64,000 nucleotides of DNA, taken from NCBI GenBank assembly GCA_964016885.1, contig OZ024764.1:7378001-7442000 (forward strand). The letters are read 5' to 3'. The notes under the pieces were generated by a model. It did no database searches. It was not told the DNA's origin and was given only the letters and a program-made list of their open reading frames with translations. The stretch's first letter is position 1, and every line of letters starts with the position of its first letter. This document shows positions 4,279 to 64,000 of the stretch, in pieces. Made by a program: the position numbers and the translations under genes. Source of the DNA: Eledone cirrhosa (taxonomy: Eukaryota).

Positions 4279-5896
<1,618 letters not shown>

Positions 5897-10288: not shown

Positions 10289-11179
10289 TTATAACTAAAC
10301 GACTAATTCTGAGTTTTTAAACCAAGGGAGACAACCTAGAAAGATTATCGTTTTTACAACTTGACACCCCTCTTATTATAGAGTACCTTGGTCTATATAT
10401 AAGAATATCCAAGAAAATATAATAGTCAATATAATTTAAAGTTAGCAGATAACAAAAACACTAATATTTTCCAGTTAATTATTATAAATTCAGACGTGGC
10501 AACCTCTAAAATCCCAATCGAAGAATACCATGAAAAAAGTGCTTCAAAACGGGGAGAAATGAGGCAAAATTGTAAGATTTTACATAATAAAAGCTATACC
10601 TATTTTTACAAGAGAAGACGTGTGTTACCCACTTCAGAGTGGGTGGGAGATCTCCCTGTCGGACGGGGAGAGTTGACAGGTCTGGAAATTTATTAGTAGA
10701 TACTCTAAGATGGTGTTAGATATACAATTTATACATCGTAATTTAGAATAAAGTTGTTGACTTGTGTTGTTGTTAAAATATGTTTAATCTGTGATATTTG
10801 AGACAATATACTGGACAGTGGAATTAATATTAAACATGCTATGTAGCTGGTAAACTCTAAAAGAACACAACACATCGCTATAGCGTTTCACCAGCCCCTT
10901 CCTGTATGTGTATATGTAGGTTTACACCTCTCTTGTCTCTATCTGTCTATATATTTACCTGTAGATGTGTGTATATGTAGGTTTACACCTCTCTTGTCTC
11001 TATCTGTCTTATATATTTACCTGTAGATAATAATGAAATTATCGTGTAAAGTGCTCAGGTGCACTACCACTCGTCAAAGGTGTATGTATAGTACATAGAA
11101 TAAAACACAAATGTCAGGGAAGTGAATAGTGTATGAGTCATGGTATACATGTGTGTATGTGTATGGAGGGGAACATTAG

Positions 11180-23939: not shown

Positions 23940-24824
23940 TTATAGTTCTGTATGAATACCTACATGCCTCGTCAAATGACTTTTGCGAGTGAATGATTTA
24001 CCACAGATGTCACAGTGATAGGGCTTCTCTCCTGTATGAATGTGTTTGTGTATAATCAATTGACTATTTTGAGAGAATGATTTACTACAGATATCACAGT
24101 GATAAGGCTTCTCTCCTGCATGAATATGTTTGTGGGTAGTTAAATTACTACTTCCAGAGAAAGATTTACTACAGATATCACAGTGATATGGTTTTTCACC
24201 TGTGTGAATATGTTTGTGAACAGCTAATTCACTATTTTGAGAGAATGATTTTCCACAGATATCACAGTGGTATGGCTTTTCTATTGTATGAATACGTTTG
24301 TGAGTAGTTACATGATCTTTTTTAGAGAACGATTTACCACAGATATCACAGTGATATGGCTTTTCTCCTGTATGGACACGTTTGTGCCTAGTCAGATCAC
24401 CACTTCCAGAAAACGATCTACTACAGATATCACAGTGATATGGTTTCTCTCCTGTATGAAGACGTTTGTGTTTACTTAAGTCACTACTTCTAGAGAATGA
24501 TTTACCACAGATATCACAAAGATATAGCTTCTCTCCTGTATGAACACGTTTGTGTTTAGTTAAGTCCCCACTTCCAGAGAATGATTTCTCACAAATATCA
24601 CAGTGATATGGCTTCTCTCCTGTATGAATACGTTTGTGAGTAGTTAAGTGATCTTTTTTAGAGAATGATTTCTCACAGATATCACAGTGATATGGCTTCT
24701 CTCCTGTGTGAATACGTTGGTGAGTAGTTAAATGATCTTTTTTAGAGAATAATTTACCACAGATATCACAGGAATGTGATGATTTTCCTGTCCCTTTCGG
24801 CATCTCTTCGGGGAAATACATCAA
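23940..24824 (-). CDS. C2H2 zinc-finger protein, 10 tandem fingers, 294 aa, single coding exon
   Basis: Uninterrupted ORF with ten C-x2-C-x12-H-x3-H fingers and TGEKPY linkers; candidate splice acceptor TTATTTCAG at 25090-25098; AATAAA downstream. Confidence 0.9.
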
Positions 24825-40296: not shown

Positions 40297-43200
40297 GTGG
40301 ACAATCCTGGACCTACAGGCTCTGGTACAGCTGGGGAAGGTGTGTACCTGGTCAGTTGGTGGTCAATCCTGGAGCTGCAGGCTCTGGTACAGCTGGGGAA
40401 GGTGTGTACCTGGTCAATTGGTGGTCAATCCTGGAGCTGCAGGCTCTGGTACAGCTGGGGAAGGTGTGTATCTGGTCAATTGGTGGTCAATCCTGGAGCT
40501 GCAGGCTCTGGTACAGCTGGGGAAGGTGTGTACCTGGTCAATTGGTGGTCAATCCTGGAGCTGCAGGCTCTGGTACAGCTAGGGAAGGTGTGTACCTGGT
40601 CAATTGGTGGTCAATCCTGGAGCTGCAGGCTCTGGTACAGCTAGGGAAGGTGTGTACCTGGTCAATTGGTGGTCAATCCTGGGCCCACAGGCTCTGGTAC
40701 AGCTGGGGAAGGTGTGTACCTGGTCAGTTGGTGGTCAATCCTGGGCCCACAGGCTCTGGTACAGCTGGGGAAGGTGTGTACCTGGTCAGTTGGTGGTCAA
40801 TCCTGGACCCACAGGCTCTGGTACAGCTGGGGAAGGTGTGTACCTGGTCAGTTGGTGGTCAATCCTGGACCCACAGGCTCTGGTACAGCTGGGGAAGGTG
40901 TGTACCTGGTCAGTTGGTGGTCAATCCTGGGCCCACAGGCTCTGGTACAGCTAGGGAAGGTGTGTACCTGGTCAGTTGGTGGTCAATCCTGGACCCACAG
41001 GCTCTGGTACAGCTGGGGAAGGTGTGTACCTGGTCAGTTGGTGGTCAATCCTGGGCCCACAGGCTCTGGTACAGCTGGGGAAGGTGTGTACCTGGTCAAT
41101 TGGTGGTCAATCCTGGGCCCACAGGCTCTGGTACAGCTGGGGAAGGTGTGTACCTGGTCAGTTGGTGGTCAATCCTGGACCTACAGGCTCTGGTACAGCT
41201 AGGGAAGGTGTGTACCTGGTCAGTTGGTGGTTGAGTGGTGGTCAATCCTGGAGCTGCAGGCTCTGGTACAGCTGGGGAAGGTGTGTACCTGGTCAATTGG
41301 TGGTCAATCCTGGCGCTGCAGGCTCTGGTACAGCTGGGGAAGGTGTGTACCTGGTCAATTGGTGGTCAATCCTGGGCCCACATGCTCTGGTACAGCTAGG
41401 GAAGGTGTGTACCTGGTCAATTGGTGGTCAATCCTGGGCCCACAGGCTCTGGTACAGCTAGGGAAGGTGTGTACCTGGTCAGTTGGTGGTCAATCCTGGA
41501 CCCACAGGCTCTGGTACAGCTGGGGAAGGTGTGTACCTGGTCAGTTGGTGGTCAATCCTGGACCCACAGGCTCTGGTACAGCTGGGGAAGGTGTGTACCT
41601 GGTCAGTTGGTGGTCAATCCTGGTCCCACAGGCTCTGGTACAGCTAGGGAAGGTGTGTACCTGGTCAGTTGGTGGTCAATCCTGGACCCACAGGCTCTGG
41701 TACAGCTGGGGAAGGTGTGTACCTGGTCAGTTGGTGGTCAATCCTGGGCCCACAGGCTCTGGTACAGCTGGGGAAGGTGTGTACCTGGTCAATTGGTGGT
41801 CAATCCTGGGCCCACAGGCTCTGGTACAGCTGGGGAAGGTGTGTACCTGGTCAGTTGGTGGTGAATCCTGGACCTACAGGCTCTGGTACAGCTAGGGAAG
41901 GTGTGTACCTGGTCAGTTGGTGGTTGAGTGGTGGTCAATCCTGGAGCTGCAGGCTCTGGTACAGCTGGGGAAGGTGTGTACCTGGTCAATTGGTGGTCAA
42001 TCCTGGAGCTGCAGGCTCTGGTACAGCTGGGGAAGGTGTGTACCTGGTCAATTGGTGGTCAATCCTGGGCCCACATGCTCTGGTACAGCTAGGGAAGGTG
42101 TGTACCTGGTCAATTGGTGGTCAATCCTGGGCCCACAGGCTCTGGTACAGCTAGGGAAGGTGTGTACCTGGTCAGTTGGTGGTCAATCCTGGACCCTCAG
42201 GCTCTGGTACAGCTGGGGAAGGTGTGTACCTGGTCAGTTGGTGGTCAATCCTGGGCCCACAGGCTCTGGTACAGCTGGGGAAGGTGTGTACCTGGTCAGT
42301 TGGTGGTCAATCCTGGACCCACAGGCTCTGGTACAGCTGGGGAAGGTGTGTACCTGGTCAATCCTGGACCCACAGGCTCTGGTACAGCTAGGGAAGATGT
42401 GTACCTGGTCAGTTGGTGGTCAATCCTGGACCCACAGGCTCTGGTACAGCTGGGGAAGATGTGTACCTGGTCAGTTGGTGGTCAATCCTGGGCCCACAGG
42501 CTCTGGTACAGCTAGGGAAGGTGTGTACCTGGTCAGTTGGTGGTCAATCCTGGGCCCACAGGCTCTGGTACAGCTAGGGAAGGTGTGTACCTGGTCAGTT
42601 GGTGGTCAATCCTGGACCCTCAGGCTCTGGTACAGCTGGGGAAGGTGTGTACCTGGTCAGTTGGTGGTCAATCCTGGGCCCACAGGCTCTGGTACAGCTG
42701 GGGAAGGTGTGTACCTGGTCAGTTGGTGGTCAATCCTGGACCCACAGGCTCTGGTACAGCTGGGGAAGGTGTGTACCTGGTCAATCCTGGACCCACAGGC
42801 TCTGGTACAGCTAGGGAAGATGTGTACCTGGTCAGTTGGTGGTCAATCCTGGACCCACAGGCTCTGGTACAGCTGGGGAAGATGTGTACCTGGTCAGTTG
42901 GTGGTCAATCCTGGGCCCACAGGCTCTGGTACAGCTAGGGAAGGTGTGTACCTGGTCAGTTGGTGGTCAATCCTGGGCCCACAGGCTCTGGTACAGCTAG
43001 GGAAGGTGTGTACCTGGTCAGTTGGTGGTCAATCCTGGACCCTCAGGCTCTGGTACAGCTGGGGAAGGTGTGTACCTGGTCAGTTGGTGGTCAATCCTGG
43101 ACCCTCAGGCTCTGGTACAGCTGGGGAAGGTGTGTACCTGGTCAGTTGGTGGTCAATCCTGGGCCCACAGGCTCTGGTACAGCTGGGGAAGGTGTGTACC

Positions 43201-46200
43201 TGGTCAATCCTGGACCCACAGGCTCTGGTACAGCTAGGGAAGGTGTGTACCTGGTCAGTTGGTGGTTGAGTGGTGGTCAATCCTGGACCCACAGGCTCTG
43301 GTACAGCTGGGGAAGGTGTGTACCTGGTCAGTTGGTGGTCAATCCTGGGCCCACAGGCTCTGGTACAGCTGGGGAAGGTGTGTACCTGGTCAGTTGGTCG
43401 TCAATCCTGGGCCCACAGGCTCTGGTACAGCTAGGGAAGGTGTGTACCTGGTCAATTGGTGGTCAATCCTGGACCTACAGGCTCTGGTACAGCTAGGGAA
43501 GGTGTGTACCTGGTCAGTTGGTGGTCAATCCTGGGCCCACAGGCTCTGGTACAGCTGGGGAAGGTGTGTACCTGGTCAGTTGGTGGTCAATCCTGGACCC
43601 ACAGGCTCTGGTACAGCTGGGGAAGGTGTGTACCTGGTCAGTTGGTGGTCAATCCTGGGCCCACAGGCTCTGGTACAGCTGGGGAAGGTGTGTACCTGGT
43701 CAGTTGGTGGTCAATCCTGGACCCACAGGCTCTGGTACAGCTGGGGAAGGTGTGTACCTGGTCAGTTGGTGGTCAATCCTGGGCCCACAGGCTCTGGTAC
43801 AGCTGGGGAAGGTGTGTACCTGGTCAGTTGGTCAATCCTGGACCCACAGGCTCTGGTACAGCTGGGGAAGGTGTGTACCTGGTCAGTTGGTGGTCAATCC
43901 TGGACCCACAGGCTCTGGTACAGCTGGGGAAGGTGTGTACCTGGTCAGTTGGTGGTCAATCCTGGGCCCACAGGCTCTGGTACAGCTGGGGAAGGTGTGT
44001 ACCTGGTCAGTTGGTGGTCAATCCTGGACCCACAGGCTCTGGTACAGCTGGGGAAGGTGTGTACCTGGTCAGTTGGTGGTCAATCCTGGACCCACAGGCT
44101 CTGGTACAGCTGGGGAAGGTGTGTACCTGGTCAGTTGGTGGTCAATCCTGGGCCCACAGGCTCTGGTACAGCTAGGGAAGGTGTGTACCTGGTCAGTTGG
44201 TGGTCAATCCTGGACCCACAGGCTCTGGTACAGCTGGGGAAGGTGTGTACCTGGTCAGTTGGTGGTCAATCCTGGGCCCACAGGCTCTGGTACAGCTGGG
44301 GAAGGTGTGTACCTGGTCAATTGGTGGTCAATCCTGGGCCCACAGGCTCTGGTACAGCTGGGGAAGGTGTGTACCTGGTCAGTTGGTGGTGAATCCTGGA
44401 CCTACAGGCTCTGGTACAGCTAGGGAAGGTGTGTACCTGGTCAGTTGGTGGTTGAGTGGTGGTCAATCCTGGAGCTGCAGGCTCTGGTACAGCTGGGGAA
44501 GGTGTGTACCTGGTCAATTGGTGGTCAATCCTGGAGCTGCAGGCTCTGGTACAGCTGGGGAAGGTGTGTACCTGGTCAATTGGTGGTCAATCCTGGGCCC
44601 ACATGCTCTGGTACAGCTAGGGAAGGTGTGTACCTGGTCAATTGGTGGTCAATCCTGGGCCCACAGGCTCTGGTACAGCTAGGGAAGGTGTGTACCTGGT
44701 CAGTTGGTGGTCAATCCTGGACCCTCAGGCTCTGGTACAGCTGGGGAAGGTGTGTACCTGGTCAGTTGGTGGTCAATCCTGGGCCCACAGGCTCTGGTAC
44801 AGATGGGGAAGGTGTGTACCTGGTCAGTTGGTGGTCAATCCTGGACCCACAGGCTCTGGTACAGCTGGGGAAGGTGTGTACCTGGTCAGTTGGTGGTCAA
44901 TCCTGGACCCACAGGCTCTGGTACAGCTGGGGAAGGTGTGTACCTGGTCAATCCTGGACCCACAGGCTCTGGTACAGCTAGGGAAGATGTGTACCTGGTC
45001 AGTTGGTGGTCAATCCTGGACCCACAGGCTCTGGTACAGCTGGGGAAGATGTGTACCTGGTCAGTTGGTGGTCAATCCTGGGCCCACAGGCTCTGGTACA
45101 GCTAGGGAAGGTGTGTACCTGGTCAGTTGGTGGTCAATCCTGGGCCCACAGGCTCTGGTACAGCTAGGGAAGGTGTGTACCTGGTCAGTTGGTGGTCAAT
45201 CCTGGACCCTCAGGCTCTGGTACAGCTGGGGAAGGTGTGTACCTGGTCAGTTGGTGGTCAATCCTGGACCCTCAGGCTCTGGTACAGCTGGGGAAGGTGT
45301 GTACCTGGTCAGTTGGTGGTCAATCCTGGGCCCACAGGCTCTGGTACAGCTGGGGAAGGTGTGTACCTGGTCAATCCTGGACCCACAGGCTCTGGTACAG
45401 CTAGGGAAGGTGTGTACCTGGTCAGTTGGTGGTTGAGTGGTGGTCAATCCTGGACCCACAGGCTCTGGTACAGCTGGGGAAGGTGTGTACCTGGTCAGTT
45501 GGTGGTCAATCCTGGGCCCACAGGCTCTGGTACAGCTAGGGAAGGTGTGTACCTGGTCAGTTGGTGGTCAATCCTGGACCCACAGGCTCTGGTACAGCTG
45601 GGGAAGGTGTGTACCTGGTCAGTTGGTGGTCAATCCTGGGCCCACAGGCTCTGGTACAGCTAGGGAAGGTGTGTACCTGGTCAGTTGGTGGTCAATCCTG
45701 GACCCACAGGCTCTGGTACAGCTGGGGAAGGTGTGTACCTGGTCAGTTGGTGGTCAATCCTGGACCCACAGGCTCTGGTACAGCTAGGGAAGGTGTGTAC
45801 CTGGTCAGTTGCTGGTCAATCCTGGACCCACAGGCTCTGGTACAGCTAGGGAAGATGTGTACCTGGTCAGTTGGTGGTCAATCCTGGGCCCACAGGCTCT
45901 GGTACAGCTGGGGAAGGTGTGTACCTGGTCAGTTGGTGGTCAATCCTGGACCCACAGGCTCTGGTACAGCTGGGGAAGGTGTGTACCTGGTCAATTGGTG
46001 GTCAATCCTGGGCCCACAGGCTCTGGTACAGCTGGGGAAGGTGTGTACCTGGTCAATTGGTGGTCAATCCTGGGCCCACAGGCTCTGGTACAGCTGGGGA
46101 AGGTGTGTACCTGGTCAGTTGGTGGTCAATCCTGGGCCCACAGGCTCTGGTACAGCTGGGGAAGGTGTGTACCTGGTCAATTGGTGGTCAATCCTGGAGC

Positions 46201-47430
46201 TGCAGGCTCTGGTACAGCTGGGGAAGGTGTGTACCTGGTCAATTGGTGGTCAATCCTGGGCCCACAGGCTCTGGTACAGCTGGGGAAGGTGTGTACCTGG
46301 TCAGTTGGTGGTCAATCCTGGGCCCACAGGCTCTGGTACAGCTAGGGAAGGTGTGTACCTGGTCAGTTGGTGGTCAATCCTGGACCCACAGGCTCTGGTA
46401 CAGCTGGGGAAGGTGTGTACCTGGTCAGTTGGTGGTCAATCCTGGGCCCACAGGCTCTGGTACAGCTGGGGAAGGTGTGTACCTGGTCAGTTGGTCGTCA
46501 ATCCTGGGCCCACAGGCTCTGGTACAGCTAGGGAAGGTGTGTACCTGGTCAATTGGTGGTCAATCCTGGACCTACAGGCTCTGGTACAGCTAGGGAAGGT
46601 GTGTACCTGGTCAGTTGGTGGTCAATCCTGGGCCCACAGGCTCTGGTACAGCTGGGGAAGGTGTGTACCTGGTCAGTTGGTGGTCAATCCTGGACCCACA
46701 GGCTCTGGTACAGCTGGGGAAGGTGTGTACCTGGTCAGTTGGTGGTCAATCCTGGGCCCACAGGCTCTGGTACAGCTGGGGAAGGTGTGTACCTGGTCAG
46801 TTGGTGGTCAATCCTGGACCCACAGGCTCTGGTACAGCTGGGGAAGGTGTGTACCTGGTCAGTTGGTGGTCAATCCTGGGCCCACAGGCTCTGGTACAGC
46901 TGGGGAAGGTGTGTACCTGGTCAGTTGGTGGTCAATCCTGGACCCACAGGCTCTGGTACAGCTGGGGAAGGTGTGTACCTGGTCAGTTGGTGGTCAATCC
47001 TGGACCCACAGGCTCTGGTACAGCTGGGGAAGGTGTGTACCTGGTCAGTTGGTGGTCAATCCTGGGCCCACAGGCTCTGGTACAGCTGGGGAAGGTGTGT
47101 ACCTGGTCAGTTGGTGGTCAATCCTGGACCCACAGGCTCTGGTACAGCTGGGGAAGGTGTGTACCTGGTCAGTTGGTGGTCAATCCTGGGCCCACAGGCT
47201 CTGGTACAGCTGGGGAAGGTGTGTACCTGGTCAGTTGGTGGTCAATCCTGGACCCACAGGCTCTGGTACAGCTGGGGAAGGTGTGTACCTGGTCAGTTGG
47301 TGGTCAATCCTGGGCCCACAGGCTCTGGTACAGCTGGGGAAGGTGTGTACCTGGTCAGTTGGTGGTTGAGTGGTGGTCAATCCTGGAGCTGCAGGCTCTG
47401 GTCAGTTGAGGAAGGTGTGTACCTGGTTGA
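40297..47430. repeat. 62-bp satellite, ~115 copies, derived from an RTE (BovB-like) C-terminal Cys/His motif
   Basis: Unit CAATCCTGGACCCACAGGCTCTGGTACAGCTGGGGAAGGTGTGTACCTGGTCAGTTGGTGGT. The minus strand reads HTFPSCTRACGSRIDH; the flank reads IKTTAATFEEGRKAAAEDKHQRRK. Confidence 0.93.
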
Positions 47431-48489: not shown

Positions 48490-51400
48490 AATCATCATCA
48501 TTTTACATCCACTTTTCCATGCTTGGAAGGGTGGAATGGATCCTATTCAGCACAGATTCTCTCCACTTGTCCACGGTCCTTTGTCATCTTCTTCGTGAGC
48601 TTCAGCGATTTAAGGTCAGCTCTCACCACCTCCGCCCATGATTTTCGTGGTCTTCCTCTACTGTGTCTTGCTTCTACTGGGATTTCTTGGCACTCCTTTA
48701 CCCAGTGGTCATCCTCCATGCGCATCACATGTCCATACCATCTCAGTCTTCTCTCCCACACACCACAACGTATCCCTCTTATACCCAGTTTCTCTCAACA
48801 CATCACATGTCCATACCTTCTCAGTCTTCTCTCCCACACACTACAACTTATCCCTCTTATACCCAGTTTCTCTCTCAACACATCACATGTCCATACCATC
48901 TCAGTCTTCTCTCCCACACACCACAACTTATCCCTCTTATACAGTTTCTCACTCAACACATCACATGTCCATACCATCAGTCTTCTCTCCCACACACTAC
49001 AACTTATCCCTCTTATACAGTTTCTCTCTCAACACATCACATGTCCATACCATCTCAGTCTTCTCTCCCACACACTACAACTTATCCCTCTTATACCCAG
49101 TTTCTCTCTCAACACATCACATGTCCATACCATCTCAGTCTTCTCTCCCACACACCACAACTTATCCCTCTTATACAGTTTCTCACTCAACACATCACAT
49201 GTCCATACCATCAGTCTTCTCTCCCACACACCACAACTTATCCCTCTTATACAGTTTCTCTCTCAACACATCACATGTCCATACCATCAGTCTTCTCTCC
49301 CACACACTACAACTTATCCCTCTTATACAGTTTCTCACTCAACACATCACATGTCCATACCATCAGTCTTCTCTCCCACACACTACAACTTATCCCTCTT
49401 ATACCCAGTTTCTCTCTCAACACATCACATGTCCATACCATCTCAGTCTTCTCTCCCACACACTACAACTTATCCCTCTTATACCCAGTTTGTCTCTCAA
49501 CACATCACATGTCCATACCATCTCAGTCTTCTCTCCCACACACTACAACTTATCCCTCTGATACAGTTTCTCTCTCAACACATCACATGTCCATACCATC
49601 TCAGTCTTCTCTCCCACACACCACAACTTATCCCTCTTATACACAGTTTCTCTCTCAACACATCACATGTCCATACCATCTCAGTCTTCTCTCCCACACA
49701 CCACAACTTATCCCTCGTATACACAGTTTCTCTCTCAACACATCACATGTCCATACCATCTCAGTCTTCTCTCCCGCACACCACAACTTATCCCTCGTAT
49801 ACACAGTTTCTCTCTCAACACATCACATGTCCATACCATCTCAGTCTTCTCTCCCACACACCACAACTTATCCCTCTTATACGCAGTTTCTCTCTCAACA
49901 CATCACATGTCCATACCATCTCAGTCTTCTCTCCCGCACACCATAACTTATTCCTCTTATACACAGTTTCTCTCTCAACACATCACATGTCCATACCATC
50001 TCAGTCTTCTCTCCCGCACACCATAACTTATTCCTCTTATACACAGTTTCTCTCTCAACACATCACATGTCCATACCATCTGTCTTCTCTCCCACACACC
50101 ACAACTTATCCCTCTTATACAGTTTCTCTCTCAACACATCACATGTCCATACCATCTCAGTCTTCTCTCCCACACACCACAACTTATCCCTCTTATACAG
50201 TTTCTTTCTCAACACATCACATGTCCATACCATCTCAGTCTTCTCTCCCACACACCGCAACCTATCCCTCTTATACCCAGTTTCTCTCTCAACACATCAC
50301 ATGTCCATACCATCTCAGTGTTCTCTCCCACACACCACAACTTATTCTTCTTATACACAGTTTCTCTCTCAACATATCAAATGTCCATACCATCTCAGTC
50401 TTCTCTCCCATACACCACAACTTATCCCTCTTATACACAGTTTCTCTCTCAACACATCACATGTCCATACCATCTCAGTCTTCTCTCCCACACACCACAA
50501 CTTGTCTCTCTTATACACAGTTTCTCTCTCAACACATCACATGTCCATACCATCTCAGTCTTCTCTCCCACACACCACAACTTATCCCTCTTATACACAG
50601 TTTCTCTCTCAACACATCACATGTCCATACCATCTCAGTCTTCTCTCCCACACACTACAACTTATTCCTCTTATACACAGCTTCTCTCTCAACACATCAC
50701 ATGTCCATACCATCTCAGTCTTCTCTCACACACACCACAACTTATCGCTCTTTTACACAGTTTCTCTCTCAACACATCATATGTCCATACCATCTCAGTC
50801 TTCTCTCCTGCACACAACTTATCTCTCTTATACACAGTTTCTCTCTCAACACATCACATGTCCATACCATCTCAGTCTTCTCTCCCACACACCAAAGCTT
50901 ATCCCTCTTATACACAGTTTCTCTCTCAACACATCATATATCCATACCATCTCAGTCTTCTCTCCTACACACAACTTATCCCTCTTATACACAGTTTCTC
51001 TCTCAACACATCACATGTCCATACCATCTCAGTCTTCTGTCCCACACACCACAACTTATCCCTCTTATACACAGTTTCTCTCTCAACACATCACATGTCC
51101 ATACCATCTCAGTCTTCTCTCCCACACACTACAACTTATTCCTCTTATACACAGTTTCTCTCTCAACACATCATATGTCCATACCATCTGTCTTCTCTCC
51201 CACACACCACAACTTATCCCTCTTATACAGTTTCTCTCTCAAAACATCACATGTCCATACCATCTCAGCCTTCTCTCCCACACACCACAACTTATCCCTC
51301 TTATACGCAGTTTCTCTCTCAACACATCACATGTCCATACCATCTCAGTCTTCTCTCCCGCACACCATAACTTATTCCTCTTATACACAGTTTCTCTCTC

Positions 51401-54020
51401 AACACATCACATGTCCATACCATCTCAGTCTTCTCTCCCACACACCACAACTTATCCCTCTTATACAGTTTCTCTCTCAACACATCACATGTCCATACCA
51501 TCTCAGTCTTCTCTCCCACACACCACAGCTTATCCCTCTTATACACAGTTTCTCTCTCAACACATCACATGTCCATACCATCTCAGTCTTCTGTCCCACA
51601 CACCACAACTTATCCCTCTTATACACAGTTTCTCTCTCAACACATCACATGTCCATACCATCTCAGTCTTCTCTCCCACACACTACAACTTATTCCTCTT
51701 ATACACAGTTTCTCTCTCAACACATCATATGTCCATACCATCTGTCTTCTCTCCCACACACCACAACTTATCCCTCTTATACAGTTTCTCTCTCAAAACA
51801 TCACATGTCCATACCATCTCAGCCTTCTCTCCCACACACCACAACTTATCCCTCTTATACGCAGTTTCTCTCTCAACACATCACATGTCCATACCATCTC
51901 AGTCTTCTCTCCCGCACACCATAACTTATTCCTCTTATACACAGTTTCTCTCTCAACACATCACATGTCCATACCATCTCAGTCTTCTCTCCCACACACC
52001 ACAACTTATCCCTCTTATACAGTTTCTCTCTCAACACATCACATGTCCATACCATCTCAGTCTTCTCTCCCACACTACAACTTCTTCCTCTTATACACAG
52101 CTTCTCTCTCAACACATCACATGTCCATACCATCTCAGTCTCTCGCACACACCACAACTTATCCCTCTTATACAGTTTCTCTCTCAACACATCACATGTC
52201 CATACCATCTCAGCCTTCTCTCCCACACACTACAACTTATCCCTCTTATACACAGTTTCTCTCTCAACACATCACATGTCCATACCATCTCAGTCTTCTC
52301 TCTCACACACTACAACTTATTCCTCTTATACACAGTTTCTCTCTCAACACATCACATGTCCATACCATCTCAGTCTTCTCTCCCGCACACCACAACTTAT
52401 CTCTCTTATACACAGTTTCTCTCTCAACACATCACATGTCCATACAATCTCAGTCTTCTCTCCCGCACACCACAACTTGTCTCTCTTATACACAGTTTCT
52501 CTCTCAACACATCACATGTCCATACCATCTCAGTCTTCTCTCCCACACACCACAACTTATCCCTCTTATACAGTTTCTCTCTCAACACATCACATGTCCA
52601 TACCATCTCAGTCTTCTCTCCCACACACTACAACTTATTCCTCTTATACACAGCTTCTCTCTCAACACATCACATGTCCATACCATCTCAGTCTTCTCCC
52701 CCACACACTACAACTTATCCCTCTTATACACAGTTTCTCTCTCAACACATCACATGTCCATACCATCTCAGTCTTCTCTCCTGCACACCACAACCTATCT
52801 CCCTTATACACAGTTTCTCTCTCAACACATCACATGTCCATACCATCTCAGTCTTCTCTCCCACACACCACAGCTTATCCCTCTTATACCCAGTTTCTCT
52901 CTCAACACATCATATATCCATACCATCTCAGTCTTCTCTCCTACACACAACTTATCCCTCTTATACACAGTTTCTCTCTCAACACATCACATGTCCATAC
53001 CATCTCAGTCTTCTGTCCCACACACCACAACTTATCCCTCTTATACACAGTTTCTCTCTCAACACATCACATGTCCATACCATCTCAGTCTTCTCTCCCA
53101 CACACCACAACTTATCCCTCTTATACTCAGTTTCTCTCTCAACACATCACATGTCCATACCATCTCAGTCTTCTCTCCCACACACTACAACTTATTCCTC
53201 TTATACACAGTTTCTCTCTCAACACATCATATGTCCATACCATCTCAGTCTTCTCTCCCACACACCACAACTTATCCCTCTTATACAGTTTCTCTCTCAA
53301 CACATCACATGTCCATACCATCTCAGTCTTCTCTCCCACACACCACAACTTATCCCTCTTATACAGTTTCTTTCTCAACACATCACATGTCCATACCATC
53401 TCAGTCTTCTCTCCCACACACCGCAACCTATCCCTCTTATACCCAGTTTCTCTCTCAACACATCACATGTCCATACCATCTCAGTGTTCTCTCCCACACA
53501 CCACAACTTATTCTTCTTATACACAGTTTCTCTCTCAACACATCAAATGTCCATACCATCTCAGTCTTCTCTCCCATACACCACAACTTATCCCTCTTAT
53601 ACACAGTTTCTCTCTCAACACATCACATGTCCATACCATCTCAGTCTTCTCTCCCACACACCACAACTTATCCCTCTTATACACAGTTTCTCTCAACACA
53701 TCACATGTCCATACCATCGCAGTCTTCTCTCCCACACACCACAACCTATCTCTCTTATACACAGTTTCTCTCTCAACACATCACATGTCCATACCATCGC
53801 AGTCTTCTCTCCCACACACCACAACTTATCCCTCTTATACAGTTTCTCTCTCAACACATCACATGTCCATACCATCTCAGTCTTCTCTCCCACACACCAC
53901 AACTTATCCCTCTTATACACAGTTTCTCTCTCAACTCATCCATGCTTAGTTGTTCACGCACATCCAACGAAATATGCTTGCTTCATTTCTCTCCAGCCGT
54001 TGCATATCCTCCGCAGTTGC
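48490..54020 (-). mobile_element. RTE LINE 3' fragment hosting the 80-bp array
   Basis: Downstream flank LRWYGHVMRMEDDHWVKEC...RGRPRKSWAEVVRADL and (GAT)n tail; upstream flank EDMQRLERNEASIFRWMC. Confidence 0.9.
48722..53940. repeat. 80-bp satellite (76-80 bp variants), ~66 copies
   Basis: Period 80 (49621 to 49701); the minus strand encodes LREKLCIRGISCGV.ERRLRWYGHVM. Confidence 0.97.
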
Positions 54021-56800: not shown

Positions 56801-56954
56801 TGTGTGTGTGTGTATATATATATATAGGCATACATGACTTTTAACGGTCTGAAAAATGAAAGTAAATTTATTTTCATTTTCAACGTCATGAAAATGAAAC
56901 TACATTTAATGTCATTAATTGTTTTCATTTTTGATTGTAAATGTTGTTGATACT

Positions 56955-57183
56955 GTCCATTCTGTTATGGCTTGATTCAAGCCATAATAGAATGGACTGG
57001 GGTCATAAAAAGGGCAGAGAATGAGAACGGATTGGGGTCAGAAGGGCAGAGAATGAGAACGGATTGGGGTCAGAAGGGCAGAGAATGAGAACGGATTGGG
57101 GTCAGAAGGGCAGAGAATGAGAACGGATTGGGGTCAGAAGGGCAGAGAATGAGAACGGATTGGGGTCAGAAGGGCAGAGAATA
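56955..57183. repeat. 43-bp palindrome followed by five 32-bp direct repeats
   Basis: GTCCATTCTGTTATGGCTTGA-T-TCAAGCCATAATAGAATGGAC, then (GAAGGGCAGAGAATGAGAACGGATTGGGGTCA)n. Confidence 0.9.
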
Positions 57184-57239
57184 GTCTTTATTTAAAACAA
57201 AGCACCACAGGGCATGATTTTACTACAATCTCATAGCAA

Positions 57240-57659
57240 ATGTCTGGACGAGTATATGGACGCATTACCGTAGCTGATGATCTTTTCGATACAAATGATA
57301 TACTTAATCATAATGAAACCATATATACACTAATACCTGCGATACCACTCAGTCCAGACTTCATTAAACATTTTCATGGAATGGCTTAAACACCACCACA
57401 TTGATCACAAAAAATTTGCACAAGAGACTTTCGAAGTGTGCCACAAGATCAATCCGAAAATCAGCGGTCTGCACATAACTGGAGTTTCAAATTCTGATAA
57501 ACCTTACGTCCTGAGATCTATACGGAATGGACTCATTAACAGTGGAAAAATGCGATGCCAGGCAGCCGACAGCTTCACGTTCGGTAGTTGTGCGGATAAA
57601 CGGCTAATCTATACTGACGAGATGTGGTTCACCAACAATAACATCGAGGAGGGTAAATG
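57240..57659 (+). pseudogene. Endogenous parvovirus-like NS1 SF3 helicase fragment
   Basis: PKISGLHITGVSNSDK (Walker A with G to D), FTFGSCADKRLIYTDE (Walker B), NNIEEGKC (start of motif B'). Confidence 0.78.
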
Positions 57660-58045
57660 TGTAGTGACCTACATTCCGCGGGCTCACATACATTCTCTGT
57701 GCGTGATTTGGCTCAGTTCAGCCAATCAGCGCCAGTAGAAGAGGATGTCTCCCTACGCGCCCTGAGGAAGAAATTCCCCGCGAAGATTTGAAGAATCTCT
57801 CTCTTGTACTAGAAACTTCGAGCCAGCAACACGCATAATGTAGCAGTGAGATATTGCACCACTAGCCTCGCTGGCTTAACGGCGCAATGGCACATTCCCT
57901 TTTGTAACCTCTTTTTATCTGTAACTTCAACCATATAAATAAACAAAGATTTCATCTCTAATTACTGCGGTTGAAGTCGTTATGTTACTCGTGTCTCAAT
58001 AACAACTTTAATCCATGCTGCTGGAATTGGCGACCTGACGAAAGG
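57660..58045 (+). mobile_element. LTR-like repeat interrupting the NS1 fragment
   Basis: Starts TGTAGTG, AATAAA at ~57938, PBS-like TGGCGACC at ~58028; inverted partial copy at 60130-60288. Confidence 0.55.
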
Positions 58046-58074
58046 AATATTGTAAATAGATGGTAAATAGATCG

Positions 58075-58620
58075 AGGGACCTTCCCTCACGTCTATGTCA
58101 ACAAGATAATCCAACGAGGATACTATCACTTACCACACTGGCAACTAACGACCACTGATACTACCACCCTGCTAAAGTGGCGACTACTCTATAACTAATA
58201 CTGCTAAAAATGTATCCTGGAGGGTACTGAAACCTACATTAATGTCAAGCATCAGCAAGAACGTATACTTAAAAGAACTCCAAGCCTATCAACCAGTAAT
58301 ACAGATCCCAGTAGATAAAACTGAAGAGGAAGAAAATACGGGTAGATCACATCTAACACAGTTTCCTATAAATCCATCAAATCCTCCACCAATAGCTACT
58401 TTAGACTCAGTACCTATATTAGATTCACAAAATAACCCATCAAAAATATCATTTATGATAACGATAACTTATTATTCAGAAGTAGATTTCGAATACATAT
58501 CGGGAAGTCCTCAAACAATGGGTTGGATGGCTTGGGGTACAGCTAACGCAACAATAATGAATTCAGCTAAAACTAACTTATGTAAATGGCCACAAGATTT
58601 ACGTAATTATGAAATAACTT
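58075..58620 (+). pseudogene. Putative parvoviral capsid C-terminal fragment
   Basis: PPPIATLDSVPILDSQNNPSKISFMITITYYSEVDFE resembles the terminal jelly-roll strands of densovirus VP; lies among NS1 pieces. Confidence 0.45.
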
Positions 58621-58624
58621 TTTA

Positions 58625-58805
58625 TACTTTTGGCACAAGGCCAGCAATTACCCAGTGCATTACTGGTACTTTATTTTATCGACCCCGTAAGGATGAAAGG
58701 CAAAGTTAACCCCGGCGGGATTTGAACTCAGAATGGAAAGGGCCGTAACTCTATGCGTCAAAGCATGGAGTCCGACCCTCTATCGATACTGCCAATCCAC
58801 AGCCC
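58625..58805 (-). mobile_element. SINE family A copy
   Basis: Same sequence as 38830-39015. Confidence 0.85.
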
Positions 58806-58929
58806 TTTCCTATAAATCTATCAAATCCTCCACCAATAGCTACTTTAGACTCAGTACCTATATTAGATTCACAAAATAACCCATCAAAAATATCATTTAT
58901 GATAACGATAACTTATTACTCAGAAGTAT

Positions 58930-59280
58930 ATGAAATAACGAGAGTTGGTAAAACTCGCCAAGCACATCGTTAAAGTAGTATTACAATGTAACCATTTTCC
59001 ATTTCAGAACGTTGGGCACAAATTATACATGTGCATCTATCCATGGATAGACACAAACGATTACTATTGGGACAAAGGATTAGTGCCCATAAAACATTTC
59101 CAACTGAACATAAACGAATACAACGACGACGAAACCCGAAAAAACATCTCCCAAATAAGCAGCAATTACAAATTGAAGGAGTTCATTCACTGTCAGGGAG
59201 CGACAGTCATATACCATCCGAAAAATAACATAATATGCCAAAAGAAAGAGTGGAATGCGTTTAACCACTTTCATATAATA
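58930..59280 (+). pseudogene. Putative NS1 N-terminal HUH endonuclease fragment
   Basis: Open frame ending NHFHII (HUH followed by hydrophobic residues), cut by a Helitron end. Confidence 0.5.
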
Positions 59281-59460
59281 CTAGCAGTAAAGCCTGGCGT
59301 TGCTCGGGGTCGCTCAGTAGCTGTGTTAAAGTTACAATGTTAAGTTTCTTTTTTGGCTTAAAGTCTGTCTGCACGACTGTCTGTCTGCACGCCTAACGAA
59401 ATTTACAGATACATATATTTTAAATAAACTTATATAATTTTTGCTTTTTTTTACGAAATA
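59281..59460 (-). mobile_element. Helitron-like 3' end
   Basis: A|CTAGCAGTAAAGCCTGGCGTTGCTCGGG is the reverse complement of hairpin + CTAG; CTGT repeats follow. The far boundary is uncertain. Confidence 0.6.
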
Positions 59461-60129
59461 TTTGCTTGTTTTACGTAGTCTTTAAATAGACTTGTTTTCA
59501 AGTAAAAATATTGTTTTAAAAGGCTTTTAAATGGAAATGAAGCAAAACGGAAGCTTAGTGTTCGAACTGATGAATTTTGCAGGTCAAAATTTTGCTGGCT
59601 CGACAACTGTTCGTGTATTGTGTTAATGTCATTTTAAACGCTGAGAAAGCCAGCGTAATTTTTTTAATTATTGCACGCAGAAAATGTAAACAGAACAAAG
59701 GGAAATAACTCGTCACTTACGTTCAAAAATCGATACATTAGATTCGACCAGGAGAAAATCAATATGTATTGTATTTTTATTATTAAAAAAACAAAAAAGA
59801 CTGGGGAAAGGAGGAACTGAATCCACTTATGTGGTTAACAGTATGTAAGCCATTTATCGACAAGTATTTAGCAGAAGTATATTTAGAAGTTGTAATGTTG
59901 CCACGAGGAACCACCTTTGGTAGAAAGATATGATAGGAATAAGGACAACAACTTTAGCATGTTTTACATTATTTATTAACAAAGGTTGAGCTGGCATGCC
60001 AAGAGAAATAAAACAAACGAATTAAGATTTCAGAAAGGCACGGTCTACTGGCTGTTCAAGTTTTGCCAGGCCGTGGTTAAATTGTTGTGTTACATATTGG
60101 CTAGTGATTTCACGGCGAAAGAAAAGTAG

Positions 60130-60288
60130 TCGGTCGAGCTGCAAGAGAGAGATTCTTCAAATCTTTGCGGGTAATTTCTCCCTCAGGACGCATAGGGATA
60201 CATCCTCTTCTACTGGCGCTGATTGGCTGAGCTGAGCCAAATCACGCACAGAGAATGTATGTGAGCCCGCGGAATGTAGGTCACTACA
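60130..60288 (-). mobile_element. Inverted partial copy of the LTR-like repeat
   Basis: Reverse complement of 57660-57820. Confidence 0.75.
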
Positions 60289-60651
60289 AGTATATTGACC
60301 ACAAATATACTGAGATATATACTGCTGTAAATACAACACCAGACTCCACTCTGTACACTATAATACCTTCTGATTTCGACTCACCGAAAACTAAGAGTCA
60401 CGTCAACAGAGTAAAGAGAAAATTAGATAACAGTATCACAAGGAGCACTGGGAAACCCCTCTAATAATTTTTGAGGCAACCCAGCATGGGCAACGCAGAC
60501 GGTTCCAAGATTGAGAGGATGTTTGCTAGGGCCAAAGCTCTCTTGAGAATAAGGGTTAGCTCTGTGTGATGCGTGGAGCAAGAGTAAATATTTATATTTA
60601 GCTTTCTTTAAAATATTTTCATTATTTAGAAATATTTTTAAAGGTAATAGG

Positions 60652-60960
60652 ATCATCATCATCATCACCGTTTTACGTCCGTTCTTCCACGCTAGCATGG
60701 GTTAGACGGGTTGTCCTGTTGTGTGCAGTGTCTGGTCGGCTGACCATGCCTTGCTCATACAGGAACTGATCTGGCTTGATTTCTACAGCTGGATGCCCTT
60801 CCTAACACCAACCTCATTTACAGTGAGTGCTGGGTGCTTTTTCGTGGCGCCTACACGTCCACTTTACAGTGTGGGCTGGGTGCTTTTTTGCCGTGGCACC
60901 TCCACGACCACCTTGCGGTGGGGGGTGTGGGGGCATATTGTTTATATGCTTCAGCATGTA
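60652..60960 (-). mobile_element. SINE family B / RTE-tail element
   Basis: Inverted homolog of 39460-39755; (CAT)n tail. Confidence 0.7.
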
Positions 60961-61111
60961 CCCATGGGAGGATATATATATATATATGAACAGCTAAAAT
61001 AGAGAATTTATCTGGAGCAAAAGCAGGTTTACAGATAAAGGATAACATAACTGATAAGAAACTACATGAAGCTGTTTCATAGTAAGTTTACAACAATTAT
61101 TTCTATTACCA

Positions 61112-61420
61112 ATGTATCAGGTGATGTTCCTGGTGGTGAGGCTGCTTAGCTATTCCAGTCTTGATAACTACTTTCGACCTGAGCAGCCTAACAATACTGA
61201 TAATAGCGTGGATAATAATATGGCTAGCATGGGGACGGATGACGGAGGTGGTGGATGGGGTGGTACAGCACATGGTCAAGGTGCTACCATACCTCCACCT
61301 ACAGGACCTTACAGAAAAACGATCACATTCACTCGAAAGTATCATAACTGTGTGAAAAGCACAGATATGAATAAAGCAGTAGGTAAATTCGAAGTGTTAC
61401 AATTAGCACAAGACGATTAG
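61112..61420 (+). pseudogene. Putative parvoviral capsid N-terminal fragment
   Basis: MASMGTDDGGGGWGGTAHGQGATIPPPTGPYRKTITFTRKY: Gly-rich tract followed by a beta-B-like strand. Confidence 0.6.
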
Positions 61421-61645
61421 CACAAGATATATAAAATAATATTACCGGTTTCGATGTTATCCATCTTATCAAATATTAAAAATCAAGAGTTGAAGTAGGT
61501 CTGTTCATATTTTGTGTTGGGATGGTGAATATATATACATATATATAGTCTATTGGATATGGTCACTAATATAAAATTAAAAAAAACACTGATACCACAA
61601 CAAATTCGAACAGAGCCTGAAAATAACTAATTCCACCACAGCCAA

Positions 61646-62520: not shown

Positions 62521-62558
62521 CAGGGGGGGGGGGGGGGTAGAGGGTCTAAAACAAAATA

Positions 62559-64000
62559 CCTCACTACATCTGGCCTGATTGTGGAGCAGACGTGAATAGT
62601 AGGGATGTTGAGGGTAACACCTCACTACATCTGTCCTGACTGAGGAGCAGACCTGAATATTGGGGATGTTGAGGGTAACACCTCACTACATCTGTCCTGA
62701 CTGAGGAGCAGACCTGAATATTGGGGATTTTGATGGTAACACCTCACTACATCTGACCTGACAGAGGAGCAGACCCGAATATTAGGGATTTTTAGGGTAA
62801 GACCTCACTACATCTGTCCTGACTGAGGAGCAGACCTGAATATTGGGGATGTTGAGGGTAACACCTCACTACATGTCCTGACTGAGGAGCAGACCTGAAT
62901 ATTGGGGATGTTGAGGGTAACACCTCACTACATCTGGCCTGAGGAGCAGACCTGAATATTGGGGTTTTTGAGGGTAACACCTCACTACATCTGGCCTGAG
63001 GAGCAGACCTGAATATTGGGGATGTTGAGGGTAACACCTCACTACATCTGTCCTGACTGAGGAGCAGACCTGAATATTGGGGATGTTGAGGGTAACACCT
63101 CACTACATCTGTCCTGACTGAGGAGCAGACCTGAATATTGGGGATGTTGAGGGTAACACCTCACTACATCTGTCCTGACTGAGGAGCAGACCTGAATATT
63201 GGGGATGTTGAGGGTAACACCTCACTACATCTGTCCTGACTGAGGAGCAGACCTGAATATTGGGGATGTTGAGGGTAACACCTCACTACATCTGTCCTGA
63301 CTGAGGAGCAGACCTGAATATTGGGGATGTTGAGGGTAACACCTCACTACATCTGGCCTGACTGTGGAGCAGACCTGAATATTGGGGATTTTGAGGGTAA
63401 CACCTCACTACATCTGACCTGACAGAGGAGCAGACCCGAATGTTAGGGATTTTGAGAGTAAGACCTCACTACATCTGTCCTGACTGAGGAGCAGACCTGA
63501 ATATTGGGGATGTTGAGGGTAACACCTCACTACATCTGGCCTGAGGAGCAGACCTGAATATTGGGGATGTTGAGGGTAACACCTCACTACATCTGTCCTG
63601 ACTGAGGAGCAGACCTGAATATTAGGGATGTTGAGGGTAACACCTTACTACATCTGTCCTGACTGAGGAGCAGACCTGAATATTGGGGATGTTGAGGGTA
63701 ACACCTCACTACATCTGGCCTGACTGAGGAGCAGACCTGAATATTGGGGATTTTGAGGGTAACACCTCACTACATCTGTCCTGACTGAGGAGCAGACCCG
63801 AATATTGGGGATGTTGAGGGGTAACACCTCACTACATCTGGCCTGACTGTGGAGCAGACCTGAATATTGGGGATTTTGAGGGTAACACCTCACTACATCT
63901 GACCTGACAGAGGAGCAGACCCGAATGTTAGGGATTTTGAGGGTAAGACCTCACTACATCTGTCCTGACTGAGGAGCAGACCTGAATATTAGGAATTTTG
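62559..64000. repeat. 61-bp satellite, ~23 copies, runs off the window end
   Basis: CCTCACTACATCTGTCCTGACTGAGGAGCAGACCTGAATATTGGGGATGTTGAGGGTAACA, period 61 (63061 to 63122). Confidence 0.96.

What the first reader, a model, noticed from the sequence alone, without database searches (positions are those of the whole stretch)
57240..61420. Scrambled endogenous parvovirus/densovirus-like element
Seen: four plus-strand coding fragments in the order SF3 helicase (GVSNSDK...LIYTDE), VP-like C-terminus, HUH-motif fragment (NHFHII), Gly-rich VP-like N-terminus, separated by LTR-like, SINE and Helitron insertions. Known: parvovirus NS1 has an N-terminal HUH nuclease and a C-terminal SF3 helicase, and VP starts with a Gly-rich tract. 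Inference: this is a fossil of an invertebrate parvovirus, possibly Hamaparvovirinae-like. The permuted order fits a head-to-tail concatemer (helicase..VP-C | HUH..VP-N) with deletions. I know of few characterised cephalopod parvoviruses.
Basis: partly seen in the sequence, partly recalled or inferred. Interest (0 to 1): 0.75.

Follow-up and report, generated by a model that had tools for sequence, protein, structure and literature searches.

The report
Patchwork of capsid-first parvovirus fossils
This 4-kb stretch is a patchwork of broken pieces from two, likely three, different parvoviruses, and their relatives elsewhere in the same animal genome carry the capsid gene in front of the replication gene, the reverse of the textbook order, in one lineage likely inside an intron of it.

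Summary
The parvoviral origin is confirmed; the concatemer and Hamaparvovirinae readings are not. The stretch is the C-terminal half of one NS1 gene (lineage A), cut by two solo LTRs. About 27 of its codons are replaced by a piece of a second parvovirus (lineage B: capsid end plus NS1 start). A capsid N-terminus, likely from a third virus, follows. The capsid-end-to-HUH order is native, not scrambled: other copies in this genome show 26 capsid-end-to-NS-start junctions and no same-lineage reverse junction. Lineage B has terminal hairpins left of the capsid gene and right of NS1. It also has an 18-codon leader with a splice donor before the capsid ATG and an in-frame acceptor after the capsid stop, so the capsid gene likely lies inside an NS1 intron. 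Both lineages carry PLA2. Over about 31 kb all coding fragments found (15 viral, 12 transposon hits) share one strand, as in a unistrand piRNA cluster; no RNA data tested this. Cephalopod parvovirus fragments were listed in 2016; ten searches found no report of this gene order. The scan noted a similar one-way archive elsewhere in this genome.

The parts
56826..57339 (+). Host DNA-transposon remains with hairpins; not a viral telomere
   Evidence: 56826-57010 has 364 candidate copies, often in inverted pairs; 57104-57345 matches L091 and the sequence upstream of an ISXO2/Merlin-like transposase ORF in L030
57340..57659 (+). NS1 of lineage A (A2 type), SF3 helicase first part; Walker A motif degenerate, Walker B present
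   Evidence: 79% aa to L013 NS1; Pfam Parvo_NS1 E 0.014 alone, below cut-off; relatives E 1e-16
57660..58208 (+). Solo LTR (Gypsy-type inferred from a primer-binding-like sequence after 3 of 8 copies viewed), 4-nt target duplication AATG
   Evidence: 97% to many copies, 2155 candidates; ends and duplication
58213..58308 (+). Same NS1, helicase second part
   Evidence: 86% aa to L013 residues 367-402; Parvo_NS1 E 0.0014
58309..58617 (+). Capsid C-terminal part of lineage B, including the last jelly-roll strands; near-blunt join to NS1-A
   Evidence: 95% DNA to L040/L043, 22 other places in the genome; 72% aa to L014 VP; corresponds to model residues 274-373, structurally aligned to 342; join
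58618..58805 (-). SINE inserted in the capsid end (strand inferred from a recalled tRNA B-box)
   Evidence: 26 near-full-length hits in the stretches held; alignment to L078
58806..58931 (+). 126-nt duplication of 58362-58487 next to the SINE
   Evidence: 98% identical
58929..59007 (+). Last capsid codons and stop (58973), then a conserved pyrimidine tract and CAG: predicted splice acceptor of NS1-B
   Evidence: CAG invariant in 11 of 11 aligned copies; acceptor pattern in 17 of 17 capsid ends found by the pattern
59008..59280 (+). NS1 N-terminal part of lineage B with HUH-type motif (NHFHII)
   Evidence: 66% aa to P0020, E 1e-36; no significant match to lineage A NS1, E 0.72
59281..59747 (-). 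Helitron-like non-autonomous element, 5'-truncated, inserted inside NS1-B
   Evidence: 98-99% to many copies, 1695 candidates; 3' CTAG followed by T in 8 of 8 copies viewed
59742..59795 (+). Last codons of the NS1-B piece (about 59742-59765), then AT-rich filler
59796..59866 (+). NS1-A resumes about 27 codons after the point where it broke off
   Evidence: 75-79% DNA to five A-type copies; alignment
59867..60288 (-). Second, related solo LTR, target duplication AGTA
   Evidence: 147-nt 95% inverted match to the first LTR; ends
60289..60440 (+). NS1-A C-terminal part
   Evidence: 60% aa to L013 residues 451-495, E 3e-16
60441..61158 (.). Host repeats: 60441-60640, 60652-60971, and a Helitron-associated piece 60972-61158 with an 81-nt deletion
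61160..61412 (+). Capsid N-terminal part with Gly-rich tract and first strand, A1-like sublineage; PLA2 part absent
   Evidence: 83% DNA and 84% aa to L124; 47-64% aa to seven other A1-type copies, 34% to A2-type L022; alignment

Best explanation
The locus is a non-functional mosaic of two, likely three, endogenous parvoviruses of an unclassified group whose genomes run left hairpin, capsid gene, NS1 gene, right hairpin on one strand, and in lineage B the capsid gene likely sits inside an intron of the NS1 transcript. Shown: a lineage-A NS1 half-gene lost about 27 codons where a piece of lineage B (capsid end and NS1 start in native order) was joined in with near-blunt or filler joins; two solo LTRs, a SINE and a Helitron-like element then inserted into the pieces; a capsid N-piece of another A sublineage lies 0.7 kb further on. 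Inferred: the joins arose by end-joining repair that captured viral DNA. Inferred: lineage B uses one left promoter; spliced RNA joins an 18-codon leader to the NS1 body across the capsid gene, and unspliced RNA gives the capsid protein. Inferred, and least certain (about 0.5): all pieces face one way because the 31-kb tract is read from the opposite strand as a piRNA precursor, so antisense viral pieces are kept.
For: Two lineages: NS1 tree split 100/100, about 20-30% aa identity between them; HUH piece matches B, not A. NS1-A is collinear on both sides of the foreign piece. Native order: among 52 stretches, 9 A-type and 17 B-type capsid-end-to-NS-start junctions outside the window; the reverse only in L014 and only across lineages. 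Telomeres: imperfect hairpin before the B capsid gene (z -4.0), perfect palindrome after NS1, both beside the same short reiterated motif, seen upstream of B capsid genes in 9 stretches; head-to-head and tail-to-tail arrays in L082-L085. A conserved 150-200-nt palindrome-bearing stretch precedes A1 capsid genes in 6 of 11 copies. Splice: leader of exactly 54 nt, phase 0, with GT donor in 15 of 17 leaders found; acceptor in 17 of 17, phase 0 to NS1; 8 of these 17, the window among them, have Leu where others have the first Met. Parvoviral identity: PLA2 above Pfam cut-off in 3 of 3 capsid ORFs scanned; capsid model pLDDT 74.5, Z 19.8 to a chapparvovirus and 19.5 to AAV capsids; NS1 profile best to AAV Rep, E 7e-20. 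Strand: 15 of 15 viral and 12 of 12 transposon-coding hits on + between 54 and 86 kb; four other multi-piece clusters co-oriented with their transposons, while two single-virus loci (C18, C19) are unbiased.
Against: No RNA of any kind was examined, so splicing and piRNA production are predictions. The leader donor could instead serve a shorter capsid isoform. The central A-to-B join (58309) and the B-to-A join were not seen bridged by any listed contig. Short non-coding inserts are mixed in strand (LTR1 +; LTR2, Helitron, SINE -). The 31-kb boundaries were chosen afterwards, and the next 100 kb lean the other way (8 - to 2 +), so strand runs may be common here. The helicase tree is short (107 columns) and unsettled; the third source rests mainly on capsid identities. 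No free virus with this order was seen: scans of viral and metagenome contigs were empty. No right telomere was found for lineage A. HUH identity rests on the motif only.
Confidence: 0.8

Rival explanations
1. One reading: one ordinary NS-VP parvovirus integrated as a head-to-tail concatemer and then lost internal parts.
For: Order helicase, capsid-C, HUH, capsid-N is as a concatemer would give; concatemer-like arrays of lineage B do exist elsewhere in the genome. In the window NS1-A end precedes a capsid N-piece.
Against: Pieces belong to different lineages; NS1-A resumes after the HUH piece; only 34 nt lie between capsid stop and NS1 acceptor, with no telomere; telomeres lie left of the capsid gene; host repeats separate NS1-A end from the capsid N-piece.
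Confidence: 0.03
2. The mosaic and gene order are as described, but the one-way orientation is not a piRNA archive: the tract is an intron or 3' read-through zone of a minus-strand gene (zinc-finger exons flank it) in which sense-oriented inserts are purged, or a repair hot spot.
For: Minus-strand C2H2 zinc-finger exons at 4.3-5.9 kb, 24.2-24.7 kb and 91.1-91.5 kb; non-coding inserts are mixed in strand; strand runs also occur beside the tract.
Against: Repeated capture of several unrelated viruses at the same few co-oriented tracts (C25, two on C12, C2, C841, C7) is not explained by purging alone.
Confidence: 0.4
3. The A-B chimera formed between co-infecting viruses (template switching during rolling-hairpin replication, or chimeric cDNA made by a host retroelement) and integrated as one piece.
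For: Same strand, near-blunt and filler joins; cross-lineage tandem junctions also in L014, L023, L040, L126.
Against: Each mosaic has different breakpoints and no second copy of the window's join was found among 24 matches; the joins do not distinguish this from capture in the chromosome.
Confidence: 0.25
4. Lineage-B NS1 is expressed from an internal promoter in the capsid gene, as seems likely for lineage A; the leader donor serves capsid isoforms only, so the capsid gene is upstream but not intronic.
For: TATA-like sequences at or just after the capsid stop in A copies (by eye); donors just before VP1 start codons are common in parvoviruses (own knowledge).
Against: An invariant acceptor after the capsid stop, in the same phase as the donor, in 17 of 17 cases, and conserved codons upstream of the first NS1 Met.
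Confidence: 0.2
5. The joins are an assembly artefact.
For: The two cross-lineage joins were not bridged in the listed contig pieces.
Against: The joined sequences share no homology; LTR target duplications are intact; contigs identical to 57250-57664, 58986-59325, 58896-58977 and 61118-61479 exist in public runs, which may be the assembly's own source.
Confidence: 0.05

Closest known systems
Cephalopod parvovirus-related sequences of Francois et al. 2016 (PMC5013282; main-text passages and supplement rows and passages seen)
   Same: NS fragments from Octopus bimaculoides, Sepia and Euprymna and a VP fragment from O. vulgaris are listed; one octopus sequence is marked as genomic beside a transposon. 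By eye, the printed Euprymna/Sepia pieces share lineage-A motifs and an octopus piece shares lineage-B motifs. The paper says marine mollusc sequences branch outside known genera.
   Different: In the parts seen they are short fragments, with no gene order, telomeres, splice pattern or multi-virus clusters described. The match to my lineages was not computed.
Parvovirinae and monosense Densovirinae (e.g. Dependoparvovirus, Iteradensovirus)
   Same: HUH-type motif plus SF3 helicase, PLA2 in the capsid N-terminus, Gly-rich tract, jelly-roll capsid, hairpin ends, both genes on one strand.
   Different: Gene order is reversed. A 2024 review states that all parvoviruses have NS on the left and VP on the right (PMC11357303 passage). 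Predicted nesting of the capsid gene in an NS1 intron.
Penaeus monodon metallodensovirus (Metalloincertoparvovirus; PDB 6WH3) and Syngnathus scovelli chapparvovirus (PDB 9NEK)
   Same: Best sequence matches of the B capsid core among solved structures (E 8e-9 and 0.003); 9NEK is the top structural match, tied with AAV.
   Different: PmMDV lacks PLA2 (PMC11357303 passage), as do hamaparvoviruses (PMC10267136 passage); identity is only about 17%. The PmMDV genome paper was not held, so its gene order was not checked.
Unistrand piRNA clusters holding non-retroviral endogenous viral elements (Drosophila flamenco, Aedes clusters; recalled, not read here)
   Same: Fragments of unrelated viruses and transposons packed on one strand.
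   Different: No small-RNA evidence; short non-coding inserts are mixed in strand.

Membership tests
Parvoviridae | NS1 with SF3 helicase of parvoviral type | tested here: met
   Parvo_NS1 above cut-off in 5 of 6 NS-type ORFs and proteins scanned at near or half length; profile best to AAV Rep and parvovirus NS1, then papillomavirus E1
Parvoviridae | N-terminal HUH endonuclease domain | tested here: inconclusive
   H-F-H motif aligned in both lineages; no Pfam or PDB match for this part; not folded
Parvoviridae | Single jelly-roll capsid protein of parvoviral fold | tested here: met
   Model of lineage-B capsid, Z 19.8, rmsd 3.6, 273 aligned to 9NEK; all 50 listed BFVD rows that carry a name are parvoviral but one
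Parvoviridae | Linear genome of about 4-6 kb with hairpin telomeres | tested here: met
   For lineage B relatives: hairpins at both ends about 4 kb apart. Absent from the window itself; only a left-end candidate for lineage A
Parvoviridae | NS cassette left, VP cassette right (descriptive rule, not a formal criterion) | tested here: not met
   26 capsid-end-to-NS-start junctions, no same-lineage reverse; rule as stated in PMC11357303
Parvoviridae | ssDNA packaged in T=1 particles | not testable with these tools
   Only endogenous copies available
Hamaparvovirinae (old sense; now Hamavirinae, Penbrevirinae, Hepanvirinae) | No PLA2 domain in the capsid protein | tested here: not met
   PF08398 above cut-off in A1, A2 and B capsid ORFs; rule from PMC10267136 and PMC13426907 passages
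Any ICTV subfamily or genus | Monophyly in an SF3 tree with named reference viruses | not tested
   All homologues returned were unnamed; no reference NS1 set was available
Head-to-tail concatemer of one virus | All pieces from one genome, telomere at the capsid-to-NS junction | tested here: not met
Unistrand piRNA cluster | One-strand bias of transposon and virus fragments | tested here: met
   27 of 27 coding hits on + in 54-86 kb, about 12 independent inserts, boundaries chosen afterwards
Unistrand piRNA cluster | Precursor transcript and 1U-biased piRNAs from one strand | not testable with these tools
   No RNA run was available to lay
Helitron (insert 59281-59747) | 3' CTAG with subterminal hairpin, inserted before T, no target duplication | tested here: met
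   8 of 8 copies viewed; the 5' TC end was not checked and is lost here

The most novel reading that the evidence does not exclude
An undescribed group of mollusc (likely cephalopod) parvoviruses breaks the family's gene order: the PLA2-bearing capsid gene comes first, and in one lineage it is nested inside an intron of NS1, so one promoter and one splice choice switch between replication and capsid proteins. These viruses have entered this host's germline dozens of times, some very recently, and their fragments are piled up in one-way tracts that would serve as piRNA-based antiviral memory in a mollusc.
Probability: 0.5. Interest if true: 0.85.

Novelty: new variant of a known kind. Interest (0 to 1): 0.7.

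Why it matters
A review states that all parvoviruses put NS left and capsid right; these copies show the reverse in both lineages, backed by telomeres in one. A capsid gene inside an NS1 intron would be a new expression strategy for the family and can be tested with a single splice-junction read. The group combines PLA2 with a capsid core closest in sequence to PLA2-less aquatic parvoviruses, which bears on how often PLA2 was gained or lost. Cephalopod parvoviruses are known only as fragments in what I could read, and this genome records many infections. Multi-virus one-way tracts make antiviral piRNA memory testable outside arthropods. The window's own element is a dead fossil.

Tried and rejected
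Helitron 3' transduction of the B piece: rejected, the Helitron sits inside NS1-B and virus sequence continues beyond it. Hairpins at 56855-56997 as a viral telomere: rejected, host transposon. 60990-61100 as a PLA2 tail, and 60972-61158 as a spliced host mRNA: both rejected, it is a Helitron-associated repeat with an 81-nt deletion that does not fit the splice sites. A shared left end at 58309 marking a mobile unit: rejected, other copies run on into the full capsid gene. The B piece as a copy of L078, which has a SINE at the same site: not supported, that SINE is 88.6% identical, mid-range among 26 hits, and the NS flank is only 71%. Direct PDB sequence searches with the two window capsid pieces found nothing; homology came through full-length relatives. 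First capsid model (10 sequences, pLDDT 38.7) was not used. Six scans of viral contigs and one of metagenome contigs gave no locus. No RNA holder listed. Runs of two other organisms covered the host repeats but not the unique viral pieces, which shows nothing about orthologues. Exact-match laying left 58228-58285 and 59794-59900 without cover. Literature searches found no report of capsid-first or nested order; two papers were not held; PMC6950620 passages held nothing relevant.
Full report
Observation. The four plus-strand pieces and the three kinds of insertion are there. The helicase piece alone scores weakly against Pfam (Parvo_NS1 E 0.014, below cut-off) but finds 19 proteins at E 1e-27 or better, 17 of them carrying Parvo_NS1, and 29 matches in the 3.0-Gb host genome. 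These genomic relatives, some with long open frames, served as references to map the window.

Corrected anatomy. Virus begins at about 57340; upstream is a host DNA transposon. A 549-nt solo LTR with a 4-nt target duplication splits the helicase, which continues at 58213-58308 in another frame. At 58309 the sequence switches, with about one shared base, to the capsid end of a different virus. A SINE and a 126-nt local duplication interrupt the last capsid codons. After the capsid stop come 34 nt and the NS1 start of that second virus, with the HUH-type motif; a truncated Helitron-like element lies inside it. After a short AT-rich filler the first NS1 resumes at 59796, about 27 codons past where it broke off, is cut by a second solo LTR, and ends near 60440. 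Host repeats follow, then a capsid N-piece at 61160-61412.

How many viruses. NS1 proteins fall into lineages A and B, about 20-30% identical and split 100/100 in a tree of 34 helicase segments (107 columns, bootstrap not settled; matches under 70 residues were left out). The window helicase is A; the HUH piece is B (66% to P0020, nothing significant to A). Within A, the helicase is closest to copies that sit beside A2-type capsids (79% to L013) and lies outside the starred A1 group. The capsid N-piece is A1-like (84% to L124, 34% to A2-type L022). So there are two sources for certain and likely three. A one-virus concatemer is excluded.

Parvoviral identity. Capsid ORFs of A1, A2 and B carry PLA2 above the Pfam cut-off (3 of 3). 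A model of the B capsid core from 83 sequences (pLDDT 74.5) matches parvovirus capsids: Z 19.8 to 9NEK and 19.5 to AAV, effectively tied. The window's capsid C-piece covers the last two strands of that fold. The NS1 profile ranks AAV Rep (7e-20) and parvovirus NS1 above papillomavirus E1 (4e-8), with no CRESS or host protein among 15 hits. The HUH part is supported by motif only. PLA2 argues against the Hamaparvovirinae reading (PMC10267136 and PMC13426907, passages). No named reference set was available, so subfamily placement was not tested.

Gene order is reversed and native. Among 52 stretches (51 fetched, some adjacent or overlapping, plus the window), a capsid end is followed on the same strand within 1.5 kb by an NS1 start at 9 A-type and 17 B-type junctions outside the window. 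The reverse occurs only in L014 and only between lineages. The window's own NS1-A end and capsid N-piece escape that test because the capsid start is missing; they are separated by host repeats and belong to different sublineages. In lineage B an imperfect hairpin precedes the capsid gene and a perfect palindrome follows NS1. Both lie beside the same short reiterated motif, which also stands upstream of B capsid genes in 9 stretches. Head-to-head and tail-to-tail arrays, as rolling-hairpin intermediates would give, occur in L082-L085. In lineage A a conserved palindrome-bearing stretch precedes the capsid gene in 6 of 11 copies; no shared right end was found in 10. A review states that all parvoviruses have NS left and VP right (PMC11357303, passage).

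Predicted expression. In B, a TATA-like box is followed by an 18-codon leader ending at a GT donor 7-10 nt before the capsid ATG. In 15 of 17 leaders found the exon is exactly 54 nt, phase 0; two have a mutated donor. Nine distinct leaders differ most at third codon positions (196/135/260). After the capsid stop a pyrimidine tract and CAG occur in 17 of 17 cases found by the pattern, phase 0 to NS1, and the window keeps this acceptor at 59007. The simplest reading is that the capsid gene is an intron of the NS1 message. This is inferred; the donor could also serve capsid isoforms. In A, TATA-like sequences at the capsid end suggest an internal promoter (by eye).

Why the pieces are together. 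More A1 and B pieces lie 10-17 kb further on. From 54 to 86 kb (window scale) all 15 viral and 12 transposon-coding hits are on +, about 12 independent inserts. That is roughly 1 in 2000 for coin flips by my arithmetic, uncorrected for choosing the limits afterwards. Other clusters behave alike: transposon hits on the viral strand number 7 of 7 and 11 of 14 (two on C12), 10 of 11 (C2) and 5 of 5 (C7), against 6 of 14 and 6 of 10 at two single-virus loci and 3 of 6 around 14 B-type stretches; C841, C23, C1, C3 and C6 had three hits or fewer and point both ways. Against: short non-coding inserts are mixed, the next 100 kb lean to the other strand, and minus-strand zinc-finger exons flank the tract, so intronic purging remains possible. 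I put the piRNA role at about 0.5.

Reality of the joins. Public contigs identical to 57250-57664, 58896-58977, 58986-59325 and 61118-61479 exist, possibly from the assembly's own source. The two cross-lineage joins were not among the listed pieces. Misassembly is unlikely because the joined sequences share no homology.

What is known. Cephalopod parvovirus-related fragments were listed in 2016 (PMC5013282; passages and supplement rows), and by eye they carry motifs of both lineages, so their existence is not new. Ten full-text searches found no capsid-first or nested order. Figures, most subscription papers and the PmMDV paper were out of reach, so an earlier case among unclassified metagenomic genomes (PMC9896142, passages) is not excluded. 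All homologues returned were unnamed; several come from contigs of 3.8-4.5 kb whose gene order I could not read. The host's identity was not tested.

Verdict. A real, dead, multi-virus fossil. Its value is that it leads to a parvovirus group with reversed gene order and a predicted nested capsid gene. New variant of a known kind; interest 0.7.

Noticed in passing
L082-L085 (contigs C998, C14, C10, C5): Lineage-B copies 98-100% identical to one another at four places, in inverted and tandem arrays: a very recent burst of integration, or material from an infected animal.
   Followed up: partly
L033/L014/L034 (C12), L040/L025/L041/L091 (C2), L023/L024 (C841), L019 (C7), L127/L030 (C12), L126 (C23): Further clusters in which pieces of several parvoviruses all lie on one strand.
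   Followed up: partly
L015:7626-10000, L016:1-6489 (10-17 kb past the finding): A1-type capsid and NS1 pieces and a B-type left end with capsid start, same strand as the finding; the NS1 holds a tandemly amplified segment.
   Followed up: partly
window 58618-58931 and L078:4575-4760: The same SINE family inserted at the same capsid site in two different viral copies; the window's has an extra 126-nt copy of nearby sequence at its 5' end.
   Followed up: yes
L089:4919-5479: The same solo-LTR family as at window 57660 also inserted into another lineage-B capsid end.
   Followed up: no
window 4288-5884, 24192-24683; 91.1-91.5 kb on the window scale (L032): Minus-strand C2H2 zinc-finger exons flank the tract.
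   Followed up: no
window 40297-47366, 48723-53944, 62558-63990: Long minisatellite arrays (62-, 80- and 61-nt units) that give long spurious open frames.
   Followed up: no
window 11067-13200: LINE endonuclease and reverse-transcriptase ORFs on the minus strand.
   Followed up: no
L141-L143 (C26, C27): A multi-copy element with Helitron-like helicase ORFs and a 585-aa ORF; a piece of it lies at window 60972-61158.
   Followed up: partly
P0023 and P0065: B-like NS1 and capsid proteins each recorded on a 4017-nt ENA contig, possibly one free-virus genome; P0064 and five cluster members lie on one 1.1-Mb contig, possibly another host's cluster.
   Followed up: no
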